From: the human T2T-CHM13v2.0 reference genome, Homo sapiens
Strand: one strand, 5' to 3'
Length of the DNA: 64,000 bases
NCBI RefSeq assembly: GCF_009914755.1
Contig: NC_060925.1
Part shown: piece after piece, positions 45,322 to 50,240 of the stretch
Layout: every line of letters begins with the position of its first letter
Position numbering within the stretch: position 1 is the first letter of the stretch
Position numbers and translations under genes: made by a program
Notes under the pieces: generated by a model
Database searches by the model: none
What the model was told of the DNA's origin: nothing
The model's input: only the letters and a program-made list of their open reading frames with translations

Positions 45322-46928
45322 CTTTGGAGGGAAAAAAAAAGCAGAAGACCAGCCATGAGACCACACCCAGAAGTCATATCAAACAACCCCACTCAAAGGA
45401 AAGAAGACCCCTCCCCAGGCACAGAGCCATGTTGATGCCACCTGAAAGTTATATCTTTAAAGGCTGGGGTACTACAGGGAGCCCTCCTAACAAAATAGGA
45501 GATCTCTTTATAAGCCAAGCCTCAGACCTTCCAGCACAAGTGTCTCCATTCACCAGCAAGAAATCTGCACCTCCCTTGGAGTAAGAACATCTGAAGCTTC
45601 TTCTAAGGAAGCAATGGGAATGGGAGGAAGAGGTTGATGGGGAATATTTCCTCTTCAGTAGCTGAGAATTTTGGAGCCTGCTGTGTCAGCACTGACCCGG
45701 CATGGAAAACTGATGGAGTGAGATTCATGCCCAGGTCTTGGGGAAGATTTCTGAGGGTTCTCCTCCTGGGATTTATGATTCTTTTCTCATTGTTGAGACA
45801 AATGCTACCACCACCCCAACCAGTCCCAGCAACTCATCTGGGTTTGCCTAAGGGCTGCAGCACAGATACATTCCTGGGTTTCTAGATCTGCCACACTGTA
45901 TACTTTTTATTCTATAAATTTGGGGGGGAAAGTAGCTGTGGGACTACATCTGCAGCTGGACCTATAGAAAGTGATTTTTTTGTGTCCATGAGTACACACT
46001 GCCCTTCATGGGGATGGGGGGACAGGGACACAATGGTAGGGAAGGGAGTTGTATTTTATGCTTAGCCTTGCTGGGGAAATGAGAAGCCGGCTATGGCAGC
46101 CTAAAGGGTGACTTTGCCGCAGACAGAGTAGAATGGGGATGGAGTGATTGCAGGCTCCCAGAGAACTCTCTGTCCTCTGTCCCTCTCCTAGGGAGGATAT
46201 CTGATCTCATCCCATCACCTGCCACTGATAACTGCCATCCCTTTCACTGAGAATATAACCACACATTCCAACATGGGAAAACAGGATTAAGACCTAAGTG
46301 TTTCTGGAAGTCTGAGCTAAATTCAAACAACATTGCAACTGATAGTAAATTCTTTACTGAGAGCAGATTTCAAGAGTGTGGGTAAGGAAGAGTAGCTGCT
46401 CATGATATAATTTGAGAGGCTTAGGCAGGGATTCTCTGCACTCAGATTTACTGACCATCTCTCATTTTCCACTACGGCTTAATGCCTTTAAAAATGTATC
46501 TGACATAATTTGACACCCAGCACTTTATAAATGAATGCTTAGCAAATATTGAGCAAAGTGTAACAGTATACGCTTTGGGGAGGGCTTGAAGGGCTAGAGT
46601 GATTTTCTCATTTGAAAATCTGCCCATTTGCCCATTTATTCTCAAACTTGAATCGTCTGCACAAGGTCACAGAATGAATTTGAAGTCAGCTGTCTGCCCA
46701 GGAACCACTCTTGCTATCCTGGCTGCAAACGCAGCAAGCTCTCTGTCTTGGCCCTCAGGGACTAAAAGACAGCACTTCTCAACAAAATGGAAATTGCTCT
46801 TAGTAGGATGAAGCTTTTTAGAGATAATGTCACAGAAAAGAGCATTTGTCTGTATTGAGTTTACAAAGTAAGGCATTGGTGGAAATAGGATTAAGATTGC
46901 TTTCTGACCCCCACGTGAGAGATTTTAC

Positions 46929-47093
46929 CACAAATGTTTCCAACTCTAATTTCAATCCTCTCCATCTCAAGCTGGGGCTGGTTCTCTTTATTGGCTTTAA
47001 AAGGTGAACCACCATCCCCTGATTTGGTTTTTCAAATTTGGAGATCAGTTCCTTTAGGCTTGGAAAGACCTGTTTTGGAGAACCTTCTGCAGT
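46929..47093 (-). CDS. SH2D1B: SH2D1B exon 3
   Basis: Acceptor ttttgcag| and donor gtg|gtaaaa; 165 nt; encodes TAEGSPKQVFPSLKELISKFEKPNQGMVVHLLKPIKRTSPSLRWRGLKLELETFV. Confidence 0.96.
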
Positions 47094-47504
47094 CTGCAAA
47101 AATACAAGAAAGGAAATCACTCATTATCATGCAATTGCGTGTGAAATGTGACACTTCTCAAAGCAGTGGGTTTTCAGGGCTGCCCTTCTATGAGCTGAAA
47201 AACTGAAAACAAGTGGCTGGAGCTCACACCACTCCCAGTTCACAGAAACTCTCATTTCTAAGACCAACCTCTGACTTGAGCCACTCTGAGTAAAGAGGAT
47301 TTGCAATCAAGGGATCCCAGCGCAGTCCATAGTATCAAGTGAACCCCATCCTTGGCAAGTTTACCTGGGGCAGTTCTCGCAGATACACTCTGAAGGGTAC
47401 CCCTGTAAGGGCTTACGTCTGTACCTACAGGCGGGCTTTGCTATCTTAAGGGACTATCGGAAGTGGACTTCTGATGGGAATGCAAAAATGCAATTAAAAA
47501 AAAT

Positions 47505-48106
47505 TCCAACTGTTATTTTAAGTTCAGGGGTACATGTGCAGGATGTACAGGTTTGTTACATAGGTAAACGTGTGCCGTAGTGGTTTGCTGCACAGACCAT
47601 CCCATCACCCAGGTATCAAGCCCAGCATTCACTAGCTATTCTTCCTGATCCTCTCCCTCCTCCCACCCTGAGCCCTCCAACAGGCCCCTGTGTGTGTTGT
47701 TCTCCTCTGTGTGTCCATGTGTTCTTATCATTCAGCTCCCACTTACAAGTGAGAACATGCAGTATTTGGTTTTCTGTTCCTGCATTAGTTTGCTAAACAT
47801 AATGGCCTCCAGCTCCATCCATGTCCCTGCAAAGGACATGATTTCATTCTTTTTTGACCTAAGCTCCTTTCTGATCCCCATGTGAGAGATTTTACCATAA
47901 ATGCTTCCAACTCTAATTTCGATCCTCTCCATCTCAAGCTGGGGCTGGTTCTCTTTATTGGCTTTAAAAGGTGAACCACCAGCCTCTGATTTGGTTTTTC
48001 AAATTTGGAGAACAGTTAGGCTGCTTAGTATTCCATGGTGTATATGTACCACATTTTATTTATCCAGTCTATCACTGATGGGCATTTAGGTTGATTCCAT
48101 GTCTTT
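47505..48106 (-). mobile_element. L1PA 3' end (older primate L1PA), interrupted at ~47856-48018
   Basis: ggggtacatgtgcaggatg..ggtttgttacataggtaaac...atgtccctgcaaaggacatg; resumes with ggctgc.tagtattccatggtgtatatgtaccacatttt. Confidence 0.92.
47868..48017 (-). pseudogene. SH2D1B: Partial duplicate of SH2D1B exon 3 plus its donor site (pseudo-exon)
   Basis: 150-nt ungapped match to 46901-47050 with 8 mismatches by manual alignment. Confidence 0.93.
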
Positions 48107-48168
48107 AAAATATGCAATTTGTATACTTTATGAATTTAAAATACACAATTTGTATACTTGATGAATTC
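48107..48168. repeat. 31-bp tandem duplication at the L1 boundary
   Basis: aaaatatgcaatttgtatactttatgaattt / aaaatacacaatttgtatacttgatgaattc. Confidence 0.8.
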
Positions 48169-48248
48169 ACAATCTCCATGTGGGCAAAACAAAACCAAAA
48201 AAGTCCCAATGTAAATAGAAAGTGGGAATGGCAACACAACTCAGTTAA

Positions 48249-48612
<364 letters not shown>

Positions 48613-48674
48613 CACCAAGCACTATTTTCTAATATAACCTTTTAGAAATAATTTTAAAATGAAAAGAATTTTCT

Positions 48675-48953
<279 letters not shown>

Positions 48954-50240
48954 TACACACCCACACACACATGAATTTTCTTCCTCTACTTTTGTGTATT
49001 TGGTTTTCTTGATCGTCACTGTGGTTTTCATATGGCCACCAAGTCAGACTAGAGAAAGGGGTTGGTGATCAGAAGGTTTTCTGATATGCGCCTGATTAAC
49101 CTCTGTATTAGAGGTACAGGCTGACATCAAAGTCATCTGCAAGGAGGTTCCTTTAATGCAGTCATTTCAACAAAAGGCATCACTGCAGGCTTCTAAGCTC
49201 AAAGCTGCTCCCCAGTGAAACGCCTCTTTGTGTCTGAGTTACAAATGATTTGGATGTCTCCCTCTATTTTGTCCACACAAGAGACAAAACAGGGTACTGA
49301 GGAATTATCCAGAATTTCCCAAAGAATAAACAGAAAAAAAATGTCTTAAAATAAGTTGCTTTTTATAAGACATTTTATCTTGAAATTATTTCAGACATAG
49401 CAAAGTTGCAAAAATAATTTTTAAAAATTACCATATATTTCACCCACACCCCAATGTTAACATTTTATTATATTTGCTTTTTATTCTCTTTCCAAATATA
49501 TACACATATATTGTGCATGTATATATACACATATATATAAGCTATTTTCAAAGTTAATTTGCAGACATAATATCCCTTTAAATACTTCAGTATTTCTTCA
49601 AAAGTAAGGATATTACACAACCATACTACAATGATTAAAATCAGGAAATTAACCTGGATACAGTACTATTTGTTAATCTTATTCAAAATTTGAATTTATT
49701 CAAATTTTGTCAACTGCCTCAATAATGTCCTCTATAGCAAAAGAAAAATAGTATAAGTGAGGTGTTTGGGGATCATTTTATATTCTAGTCTCTTTCAGAT
49801 ATTCAGAGTAAACATTAATATACTGAAGATTCTTAGAAATCTGTAGTCTCCTTAACCTTATATGTAAGTGTTTGAGAAAGATTATTTTAGGATTCTCTGT
49901 TAGCAGTTATGTTTATTATACTCTACTTCTTAAGCCAGAGAACTAAATTTAAAAGAAGCAAAATGTTTTTCTGCTTAGCTCTCAGTAAACCAGAAAAATT
50001 AAACAAACCCTAAGACTTTCAGCTATCTGATGCTTCCCACTATATTTTCGTACAACTATTGGGCACACTTGACTCCCTAAACACTCTGACCTCTTTCCAC
50101 CGTCCCTTTCTAGCTCCATCTTGCATCATTGTTGAGTCTTCTAATTCAACGGAGGTTTTGCTTGGAGTCCAGGCTGGTGTGTTTGGCCAGTGGAGGAGCC
50201 ACAGTGGAATAACAGTGAGGGTTATTCAAAAGTAGAACCC

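What the first reader, a model, noticed from the sequence alone, without database searches (positions are those of the whole stretch)
47856..48018. Templated copy of SH2D1B exon 3 plus its donor inserted into an intronic L1
Seen in sequence: 47868-48017 matches 46901-47050 (offset 967 nt, same orientation, 8/150 mismatches). It contains 122 nt of exon 3 and 28 nt of the following intron, so it did not come from spliced mRNA. It interrupts an L1PA at ...attctttttt^ggctgc..., with no target-site duplication or poly-A, ~12 nt of filler on one side, and possible aggct/ggct microhomology on the other. The frame is still open (LFSKFEKPNQRLVVHLLKPIKRTSPSLRWRGSKLELEAFM), and all six exonic differences are non-synonymous. 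The donor (atg|gtaaaa) is kept but the acceptor is missing. Inference: this is a fixed templated insertion from double-strand-break repair that postdates the L1. It leaves a decoy 5' splice site upstream of the real exon and could cause read mis-mapping or gene conversion.
Basis: partly seen in the sequence, partly recalled or inferred. Interest (0 to 1): 0.7.

Follow-up and report, generated by a model that had tools for sequence, protein, structure and literature searches.

The report
Old exon-fragment copy inside intronic L1
A 150-base piece of SH2D1B exon 3 and its splice donor was copied long ago into a nearby L1 repeat in the same gene's intron, and it now looks like a harmless repair scar that still preserves three ancestral amino-acid states of the gene.

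Summary
Window 47867-48017 repeats 46900-47050 (151 nt, 8 mismatches), and the genome holds only these two copies.

The flanking L1 pieces are collinear. 163 nt (47856-48018) replace just the dinucleotide AT of an L1 3' fragment. There is no target-site duplication and no poly(A). The left junction has 11-12 nt of filler with no detectable template, and the right junction has a possible GGCT microhomology.

The donor lies only 805 nt away in direct orientation and includes intron sequence. A DNA-level break-repair or template-switch copy made after the L1 arrived is therefore the best reading.

New here:
- Orthologues polarise the six exonic differences. Three arose in the copy. Three (L93M, S113L, M121V) arose in the real exon, so the copy is a fossil older than the ape/Old World monkey ancestor.
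- This also rules out an assembly artefact and removes any meaning from "six of six non-synonymous".
- The break sits at TTTTTT/AT, an L1-endonuclease-type site found at about 0.5-0.7% of positions.

No evidence of function was found: no good acceptor, no protein model carrying copy-specific residues and no paper. This is an ordinary kind of scar, but a well-resolved one.

The parts
46900..47050 (-). Donor segment: the last 122 nt of SH2D1B exon 3 (46929-47050) plus the first 28-29 nt of intron 3 (46900-46928)
   Evidence: Reference copy of direct-repeat family D1. Exon limits come from the hub annotation. The coding frame was checked by translation.
47500..47855 (-). L1 3' fragment, part 1 (L1 sense is on the - strand, the same sense as SH2D1B); it ends in TTCTTTTTT
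   Evidence: 86-90% identity to the 39 other scored genomic L1 copies over query 1-356. Extents confirmed by blastn against 11 loci.
47856..47866 (.). Filler of 11 nt (12 if 47867 is counted) with no identifiable template
   Evidence: No more similar to the donor's upstream flank than random 12-mers (semi-global score 1.0 against a random mean of 1.94; ungapped 5/12, p about 0.18). With up to 2 mismatches the window holds only itself and one other place, against 5.8 expected by chance. The best ungapped matches within 45500-49500 are at chance level.
47867..48017 (-). The copy: 29 nt of intron 3 followed by 122 nt of exon 3 as read on the + strand, 95% identical to the donor
47890..47898 (-). 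Copied 5' splice-site motif ATG|GTAAAA (GT at 47895-47894); it differs from the real GTG|GTAAAA only at position -3
48016..48018 (-). TAA stop in the copy's frame at the junction. Base 48018 (a) is of ambiguous origin: the L1 'A' of AT, donor base 47056, or untemplated.
   Evidence: Translation starts with a stop. Junction comparison.
48019..48106 (-). L1 3' fragment, part 2, collinear with part 1. It begins GGCTGC (GGCT = possible microhomology with donor 47057-47060). The L1 is 5'-truncated at about 48106.
   Evidence: 34 of 39 other L1 copies match query 520-607. 8 of 11 fetched copies have only AT between the parts. GGCT within 12 nt has a chance probability of 4.7%, AGGCT 1.4%.

Best explanation
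This is an old, inert scar of DNA repair.

Sequence of events:
1. An L1 3' fragment inserted into SH2D1B intron 2, in the same sense as the gene.
2. The chromosome later broke, or a replication fork failed, inside that L1 at TTTTTT/AT.
3. The gap was closed with a 151-nt copy of DNA lying 805 nt away on the same strand. That DNA is the 3' two-thirds of exon 3 with the first 28-29 nt of intron 3.
4. The copy was made either by a primer end that switched template to the nearby duplex and back, or by capture of a spare local DNA fragment. The sequence cannot tell these two apart.
5. The join cost two L1 bases (AT), added 11-12 nt of filler at one junction, and probably used a GGCT microhomology with a 5-nt skip at the other.

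Timing: the event fell after the L1 arrived and before the last common ancestor of apes and Old World monkeys.

What happened since: the copy picked up three coding changes and probably one or both of the two intronic ones. The real exon changed at three codons (L93M, S113L, M121V).

The copy has a splice-donor motif but no acceptor and no start codon, and it most likely does nothing.

Shown: the anatomy, the collinearity, the uniqueness in the genome and the polarity of the changes. Inferred: the break, the copying mechanism, the dates and the lack of function.
For: Anatomy: 151 nt at 95% identity, direct orientation, offset 967. Only two copies exist in the genome.

The insert sits inside one collinear L1. 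39 other L1 copies match the left flank, 34 of them also match the right flank, and none matches the insert. 8 of 11 fetched copies have exactly AT between the flanks.

It is not from spliced mRNA, because it contains 28-29 nt of intron 3 (with the annotation).

There is no target-site duplication and no added T/A run. The T-run has 6 T, against 3-6 T in the 10 other copies displayed at this point.

The junctions look like end joining: a 2-nt loss, filler without a detectable template, and GGCT microhomology if 5 nt (CCTTT) were skipped (chance 4.7%).

Donor proximity (805 nt, same molecule) is what local DNA templating predicts. The RNA-derived insertions described in PMC5110952 (parts 1-2 read) come from distant loci.

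Age:
- The copy has L93. Saimiri, all 10 non-primate orthologues aligned and mouse EAT-2 (1i3z) also have L. Human, gorilla and Chlorocebus have M.
- The copy has S113, as do Chlorocebus and 7 non-primates.
- The copy has M121, as do Chlorocebus, Saimiri and Catagonus.
- The copy shares G112 with the catarrhines, against R in all 10 non-primates.
- The copy's own lineage carries 3-5 changes in 150 nt. The L1's terminal branch is 0.052 over 440 sites.

No sign of use: the best upstream acceptor candidate has a pyrimidine fraction of 0.71 against 0.82 for the real one, among 28 AG sites. 7 of 7 protein hits to the copy's peptide are ordinary SH2D1B with at most 85% identity. RefSeq lists one transcript (hub annotation).
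Against: The break lies at TTTTTT/AT, the L1 endonuclease target named in PMC5110952. Only 0.5-0.7% of positions are such sites on either strand, and 0.23-0.49% in this orientation. The insert's orientation is also what reverse transcription of sense SH2D1B RNA from that nick would give. This fits an L1-enzyme role at least in making the break.

Divergence does not separate the insert from the L1 in time. Seeing 3-5 changes where about 7.8 are expected at the L1's rate is not significant (my arithmetic).

The tract is longer (151 nt) and its donor farther away (805 nt) than in either described class of DNA-templated insertion: Pol theta insertions of 3-30 bp from flanking DNA (PMC7165422, passages) and MMB-TIs with templates within 100 bp, mostly inverted (PMC8421209, passages).

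The left junction shows no microhomology.

Presence in other primates and other humans was not tested, because no such genomes are available here.

The polarity rests on one Old World monkey cluster representative and one New World monkey cluster representative.
Confidence: 0.8

Rival explanations
1. RNA-templated patch. L1 ORF2 protein nicked the L1 DNA at TTTTTT/AT, or another reverse transcriptase acted at a break there. It reverse-transcribed a stretch of nascent, unspliced SH2D1B pre-mRNA present in cis, and the cDNA was joined by end joining. This would be a class-2-TSIP-like or endonuclease-dependent event without a tail.
For: The break site matches the TTTT/A consensus (consensus as given in PMC5110952, part 2 read). 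The + strand to the right of the T-run carries the antisense of SH2D1B RNA running 3' to 5', the geometry expected for target-primed reverse transcription (sequence, strand from the annotation). The absence of a target-site duplication and poly(A), the microdeletion, the filler and the microhomology all fit class 2 features. The insertion site lies within the transcribed gene, so nascent RNA could explain the proximity.
Against: No poly(A), and no A-rich stretch in the pre-mRNA just 3' of the copied segment for the T-run to prime on (sequence 46860-46899). The donors of the RNA-derived insertions described were distant, not nearby (PMC5110952). The model needs SH2D1B to be transcribed in the germline or early embryo, whereas EAT-2 is described as an NK-cell adaptor (PMC3978279, listing abstract only; germline expression not checked). 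The TTTT/A match is a single post hoc coincidence of roughly 1 in 150-200, and it is equally explained by L1 endonuclease merely making the break.
Confidence: 0.08
2. The insert arose during the L1's own integration. The L1 reverse transcriptase left the L1 RNA, copied about 150 nt of SH2D1B pre-mRNA, and returned to the L1 RNA two bases further on.
For: Same sense for the L1, the gene and the copy (annotation). The divergence of the insert's lineage (3-5 changes in 150 nt) is not significantly lower than that of the L1 (0.052). A possible GGCT microhomology lies at the return point.
Against: It needs two template switches with a return to within 2 nt of the point of departure. From recall, not checked here, known L1 chimaeras switch once and do not return. 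11-12 nt of unmatched filler sit at the first switch. It also needs SH2D1B RNA at the site.
Confidence: 0.03
3. The copy is functional. It acts as a poison or pseudo-exon, or as a decoy 5' splice site that tunes inclusion of SH2D1B exon 3.
For: The donor motif is identical to the real one at positions -2 to +6, and A at -3 is no worse than G (splice consensus recalled). It lies 803 nt upstream of the real acceptor in the same intron. The frame is open across the copy.
Against: No acceptor of comparable quality among 28 AG sites within about 500 nt upstream. A stop sits at the junction and there is no start codon. The copy has taken 3 non-synonymous changes at residues that are invariant (I83, G92) or conserved among primates (T119) in the orthologues, as expected for neutral decay. 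RefSeq has one transcript only. No protein model contains copy-specific residues. No paper was found.
Confidence: 0.04
4. Assembly artefact or chance similarity.
For: Only one assembly was examined.
Against: E 2.3e-60. An artefactual duplicate would be identical to its source, but the copy differs at 8 sites and three of them carry ancestral residues.
Confidence: 0.01

Closest known systems
Class 2 templated sequence insertions / TSIPs (Onozawa and Aplan 2016, PMC5110952; parts 1-2 read)
   Same: An insert of a few hundred bases or less copied from elsewhere while the donor stays intact. No target-site duplication and no poly(A). A microdeletion, possible microhomology and unmatched nucleotides at the junctions. 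The size (163 nt) lies within the experimental range quoted there (73-414 bp).
   Different: The donors there are distant, often on other chromosomes, and appear to be RNA-derived. Here the donor is 805 nt away on the same strand. Those events are polymorphic in humans, whereas this one is inferred to be tens of millions of years old. It also sits at a TTTT/A site, which is a class 1 feature.
Polymerase theta locally templated insertions (Carvajal-Garcia et al. 2020, PMC7165422; passages read)
   Same: Break repair that copies nearby DNA, with short microhomologies, aborted synthesis and small deletions. The 11-12 nt filler and the 5-nt skip resemble that kind of untidy start.
   Different: Those insertions are 3-30 bp, with primary tracts rarely over 10 bp, and are copied from DNA directly flanking the break. 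Here the tract is a continuous 151 nt from 805 nt away, and no local template was found for the filler.
MMBIR-type templated insertions, MMB-TI (Osia et al. 2021, PMC8421209, passages read; MMBIR model of Hastings et al. 2009, PMC2621351, listing abstract only)
   Same: Template switching to a nearby template and back, leaving an insertion. Such events are found as germline variants that may accumulate over evolution, and a 'direct duplication' class exists.
   Different: The operational definition is a template within 100 bp, mostly inverted, flanked by microhomology. Here the donor is 805 nt away and direct, with microhomology at one junction at most.
Filler-DNA capture at breaks in primate evolution (NUMT-mediated repair, Hazkani-Covo and Covo 2008, PMC2567098; listing abstract only)
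   Same: A fixed evolutionary scar in which a break was closed with foreign DNA by end joining.
   Different: The filler there is mitochondrial DNA. Here it is a copy of the gene's own exon from under 1 kb away.
Processed pseudogene / retrocopy, and tandem exon duplication
   Same: An extra copy of coding sequence.
   Different: The copy contains intron sequence and has no poly(A) or target-site duplication, so it is not a retrocopy. It is not adjacent to its source, it lies inside an L1 and it lacks the acceptor, so it is not a tandem exon duplication.

Membership tests
Class 1 TSIP (L1 ORF2-mediated insertion of non-L1 RNA) | Target-site duplication of at least 5 bp | tested here: not met
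   No L1 bases are repeated at the two junctions. Instead the AT present in 8 of 11 other copies is missing.
Class 1 TSIP (L1 ORF2-mediated insertion of non-L1 RNA) | Poly(A) tract of 10-40 with an upstream polyadenylation signal | tested here: not met
   The T-run at the junction has 6 T, against 3-6 T in the 10 other L1 copies displayed at this point. No added run is present.
Class 1 TSIP (L1 ORF2-mediated insertion of non-L1 RNA) | Insertion at 5'-TTTT/A-3' | tested here: met
   The junction is TTTTTT/AT. Such sites make up 0.5-0.7% of positions.
Class 2 TSIP (break patched by a templated sequence) | No target-site duplication or poly(A); NHEJ-type junctions (microdeletion, microhomology, untemplated bases) | tested here: met
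   2-nt loss, 11-12 nt filler, possible GGCT microhomology.
Class 2 TSIP (break patched by a templated sequence) | Template from a distant genomic region | tested here: not met
   The donor is 805 nt away on the same strand, and it is the only other copy in the genome.
Class 2 TSIP (break patched by a templated sequence) | Polymorphic among humans; RNA intermediate | not testable with these tools
   Only one human assembly is available and there are no expression data.
Pol theta templated insertion (TINS) | 3-30 bp identical to DNA flanking the break | tested here: not met
   The tract is 151 nt from 805 nt away. The 11-nt filler has no better-than-chance match within 45500-49500.
MMB-TI (MMBIR-type templated insertion) | Template within 100 bp, usually inverted, with microhomology at the junctions | tested here: not met
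   Direct orientation, 805 nt away, microhomology at one junction at most.
Processed pseudogene | Introns removed, poly(A), target-site duplication | tested here: not met
   The copy holds 28-29 nt of intron 3 across an intact donor. No poly(A) and no target-site duplication.
L1 (LINE-1) 3' fragment as host of the insert | Both flanks align collinearly to many genomic L1 3' ends | tested here: met
6639 candidates, 40 scored including the window's own copy. The other 39 match at 86-90% (left flank) and 34 of them at 85-98% (right flank).

The most novel reading that the evidence does not exclude
The break was made by L1 endonuclease at its TTTT/A target and was patched by reverse transcription of the nascent, unspliced SH2D1B transcript in cis. 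This would be a fixed primate example of RNA-templated break repair that used the damaged gene's own pre-mRNA, which would also explain why the donor is so close. A second, independent bold reading is that the retained donor motif acts as a decoy that lowers exon 3 inclusion in catarrhines.
Probability: 0.07. Interest if true: 0.6.

Novelty: new member of a known kind. Interest (0 to 1): 0.25.

Why it matters
In practice it matters little. It is a neutral intronic scar, and at 95% identity over 150 nt it poses little risk to read mapping.

It has some value as a worked example:
- The junctions are resolved to the base. The event falls between the described classes of templated insertion in both tract length and donor distance.
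- It sits at an L1-endonuclease-type site inside an L1.
- It acts as a dated fossil of the exon. It shows that three amino-acid replacements (L93M, S113L, M121V) and no synonymous change accumulated in this part of SH2D1B on the lineage to humans.

A genome-wide census of such sub-kilobase dispersed copies, and of how often they sit at TTTT/A, would be more informative than this single case.

Tried and rejected
(1) The filler as a diverged extension of the donor. Rejected: its similarity to the donor's upstream flank is no better than that of random 12-mers.

(2) The filler templated from nearby DNA or from the other break end. Only 6-mers are shared, which is chance level. The best ungapped matches are 9/11 at unrelated sites.

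(3) The filler plus the first bases of the copy as a first aborted round of copying from the donor's own right end (11/15 matches at 47041-47055). Rejected: an unrelated site ties with it among about 8,000 positions tested.

(4) Simple tandem duplication. Rejected on geometry: the copy's right end abuts the L1 continuation, not donor position 47051, and the L1 is collinear across the insert.

(5) Dating the insert against the L1 by divergence. Inconclusive: 3-5 changes in 150 nt against 0.052 over 440 sites. The L1 figure is biased low, because the compared copies were chosen for their similarity to this one.

(6) Looking for the copy in other species through protein models. 7 hits, all ordinary SH2D1B at 85% identity or less. 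The gorilla model of 175 aa differs only by an N-terminal extension. This cannot show absence.

Exon 3 alone, given by window reference, was used instead.

(9) Literature. No paper holds SH2D1B together with 'pseudoexon', 'cryptic exon' or 'exon duplication'. Subscription journals and supplementary files were not searched.

(10) Gene conversion between exon and copy. No sign of it. The 8 differences are spread without an unusual gap (the longest identical run is 60 nt), and the exon-derived states were not transferred.

Full report
OBSERVATION

The repeat is real. The repeat finder reports one direct-repeat family of two 151-nt copies, 46900-47050 and 47867-48017, 95% identical and 967 nt apart. 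A base-by-base count over 46901-47050 gives 8 differences in 150. A search of the whole host assembly with window 47856-48018 finds only the query itself and the exon 3 region (95%, E 2.3e-60). The copy therefore has one possible source and is unique in the genome.

SH2D1B lies on the - strand. The copy holds the last 122 nt of exon 3 (46929-47050) and the first 28-29 nt of intron 3, so it spans an intact exon-intron boundary. It lies in intron 2, 803 nt upstream (in the gene's sense) of the real exon 3 acceptor.

THE HOST ELEMENT AND THE JUNCTIONS

I queried the genome with window 47500-48130. Of 6639 candidates, 40 were scored, one being the window's own copy.
- The other 39 are L1 copies that match query 1-356 (window 47500-47855) at 86-90%.
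- 34 of them also match query 520-607 (window 48019-48106).
- None matches the stretch in between.

In the 11 L1 loci fetched, 8 have the two flanks separated by exactly AT. Two (L005, L012) showed no right-hand part. One (L010) has an inverted piece there.

The two L1 parts are therefore collinear pieces of one element, and 163 nt (47856-48018) replace the two L1 bases AT. The L1 is a 5'-truncated 3' fragment (about 47500-48106), with its sense strand on the - strand like the gene.

No L1 bases are duplicated at the junctions. The T-run before the insert has 6 T, against 3-6 T in the other copies displayed, so there is neither a target-site duplication nor a poly(A) tail.

Left junction. The first 11-12 nt (47856-47866/7) are true filler.
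- They resemble the donor's upstream flank no better than random 12-mers do (semi-global score 1.0 against a random mean of 1.94; ungapped 5/12, p about 0.18).
- The window has no other near-match beyond chance.
- The best ungapped matches within 45500-49500 on either strand are at chance level.
- An attractive idea was that the filler is a first aborted copy of the donor's own right end (11/15 matches). It fails because an unrelated site scores the same.

Right junction. The donor reads CAGTT-CCTTT-AGGCT-TGG and the copy reads CAGTT-AGGCT-GC, where GGCTGC is L1. There are two readings:
- the copy ends at CAGTT and a stray A follows; or
- copying ran on to AGGCT with a 5-nt skip and joined the L1 through GGCT.
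GGCT within 12 nt has a chance probability of 4.7%, and AGGCT 1.4%. This is suggestive, not proven.

The break lies at TTTTTT/AT, which is the L1 endonuclease target 5'-TTTT/A-3' as given in PMC5110952 (part 2 read). Such sites make up 0.5-0.7% of positions in the window, in the SH2D1B introns and in this L1. In the one orientation that fits sense SH2D1B RNA the figure is 0.23-0.49%. This is one post hoc coincidence, but it is the main item that keeps an L1-enzyme role alive.

POLARITY AND AGE

The six exonic differences are all non-synonymous. Written as exon then copy, they are I83F, G92R, M93L, L113S, T119A and V121M.

I polarised them with 13 orthologues: gorilla, Chlorocebus (representing a 31-member cluster), Saimiri (representing a 6-member cluster) and 10 non-primate mammals. 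Mouse EAT-2 in the PDB (1i3z) was also used.

The copy is derived at three sites:
- F83: I in 13 of 13 orthologues.
- R92: G in 13 of 13.
- A119: T in the three primates, A in none.

The copy is ancestral at three sites:
- L93: L in Saimiri, in all 10 non-primates and in mouse. M occurs only in human, gorilla and Chlorocebus.
- S113: S in Chlorocebus and 7 non-primates. L in human, gorilla and two squirrels.
- M121: M in Chlorocebus, Saimiri and Catagonus. V in human and gorilla.

This has four consequences:
1. 'Six of six non-synonymous' says nothing about the copy. It took three changes and the real exon took three.
2. An assembly artefact is excluded.
3. M93 is shared by apes and an Old World monkey, so the copy was made before their common ancestor. 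That is about 25-30 million years ago (date recalled, not from a tool).
4. The copy shares G112 with the catarrhines against R in all 10 non-primates (Saimiri has E), so it postdates that primate change.

Of the two intronic differences, one is the loss of a CpG in the copy (ACGT to ACAT), which is probably derived in the copy. The copy's lineage therefore carries 3-5 changes in 150 nt (2-3.3%). With the human-lineage divergence since the macaque split recalled as roughly 3%, this fits a date near the catarrhine stem, with wide Poisson error.

The L1's own terminal branch comes to 0.052 over 440 sites, against 0.049-0.079 for the other copies. I obtained it from pairwise K2P distances among 8 related copies under a star tree, without building a consensus. 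The figure is biased low because the copies were picked for their similarity to this one. The difference from the insert's lineage is not significant, so the order 'L1 first, insert later' rests on structure and not on the clock.

MECHANISM

Four facts point to a copy made from local DNA while a break or a collapsed fork in the L1 was being mended:
- The donor is 805 nt away, on the same strand and in direct orientation.
- The copy carries intron sequence.
- The L1 lost two bases.
- One junction has filler and the other a possible short microhomology.

The copy was made either by a 3' end that switched template and returned, or by ligation of a spare local fragment. I cannot tell these two apart from sequence alone.

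A simple tandem duplication is excluded by geometry. A retrocopy is excluded by the intron sequence and the missing tail.

Two RNA-based rivals remain:
- An L1 ORF2-type reverse transcription of nascent SH2D1B pre-mRNA from the TTTT/A nick. The orientation fits. However, there is no poly(A), no A-rich priming site in the RNA just 3' of the copied stretch, and no evidence of germline expression.
- A double template switch during the L1's own integration, which requires a return to within 2 nt of the departure point.
I put these at about 0.08 and 0.03.

FUNCTION

Nothing suggests any function.
- The copied donor 9-mer is ATGGTAAAA against GTGGTAAAA for the real exon, so a donor-like motif is present.
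- Among 28 AG sites up to about 500 nt upstream, the best has a pyrimidine fraction of 0.71 against 0.82 for the real acceptor. Most would give frame-shifting pseudo-exons (a crude measure, not a splice-site model).
- A TAA sits at the junction in the copy's frame.
- The copy's own changes hit residues that are invariant in all orthologues (I83, G92), as expected for neutral decay.
- RefSeq lists one transcript (hub annotation).
- A protein search with the copy's peptide returns 7 hits, all ordinary SH2D1B at 85% identity or less.

COMPARISON WITH KNOWN CLASSES

Against the TSIP classes of Onozawa and Aplan (PMC5110952, parts 1-2 read), the event has class 2 junctions and one class 1 feature (the TTTT/A site). 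It fails the shared defining feature of a distant donor.

Against Pol theta templated insertions (PMC7165422, passages: 3-30 bp, flanking DNA, primary tracts rarely over 10 bp), it is too long and its donor is too far away.

Against MMB-TIs (PMC8421209, passages: 10 bp to read length, template within 100 bp, mostly inverted), the same applies, and it is direct.

It is best called a sub-kilobase dispersed, or templated, duplication. That is a known kind of structural scar that falls between these operational definitions. Templated insertions of about 10-1000 bp at breaks are also described in yeast (PMC12214859, listing abstract only) and in cancer genomes (PMC7025897, listing abstract only).

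No paper in the searched library holds SH2D1B together with 'pseudoexon', 'cryptic exon' or 'exon duplication'.

VERDICT

This is an ordinary, probably inert scar. Interest is low to moderate (0.25).

Presence in other primates and in other human haplotypes, and any use of the donor in RNA, could not be tested with the tools at hand. A search with the full-length protein was left out (see Tried and rejected). The exon-only search gave the orthologues that were needed.

Noticed in passing
window 46929-47050 (SH2D1B exon 3, codons 82-121): With the copy as an internal outgroup, the real exon took three amino-acid replacements (L93M, S113L by CpG decay, M121V) and no synonymous change since the copy was made. 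That is about as many changes as the neutral copy took. It hints at relaxed or adaptive evolution of the end of the SH2 domain and the tail of EAT-2 in catarrhines. The counts are too small for a test.
   Followed up: partly
window 47490-47510: The 3' end of this L1 is not followed by the T-rich run (antisense poly(A)) seen beside most of the 11 other copies. An A8 run sits there instead, so the tail seems lost or rearranged.
   Followed up: partly
window 48099-48160: A 31-nt tandem duplication (84% identity) starts right at the 5'-truncated end of the L1 (family D5). It may be another small repair or slippage scar at the L1 boundary.
   Followed up: no
window 48286-49013: Two Alu-like elements in inverted orientation about 60 nt apart in SH2D1B intron 2 (inverted pairs I1-I7, 71-87% complementary). 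This is the kind of pair that can form long double-stranded RNA in a pre-mRNA.
   Followed up: no
L010 (G000:C1:60194078-60197434): This L1 copy has a 119-nt stretch between the two flanks that includes an inverted piece of the right-hand part. It looks like an internal L1 inversion.
   Followed up: no
proteins P0013, P0016: Two 'metagenome' proteins (source lgn, contigs of 4252 and 1373 bases) are mammalian SH2D1B exon 3 read through into flanking non-coding DNA. This is host DNA in metagenome contigs called as genes.
   Followed up: no
protein P0002 (gorilla UniRef model): The 110-aa gorilla model lacks the 22 residues encoded by exon 2. The 175-aa NCBI gorilla model has a 43-residue N-terminal extension. 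Both look like gene-model artefacts and have nothing to do with the copy.
   Followed up: partly
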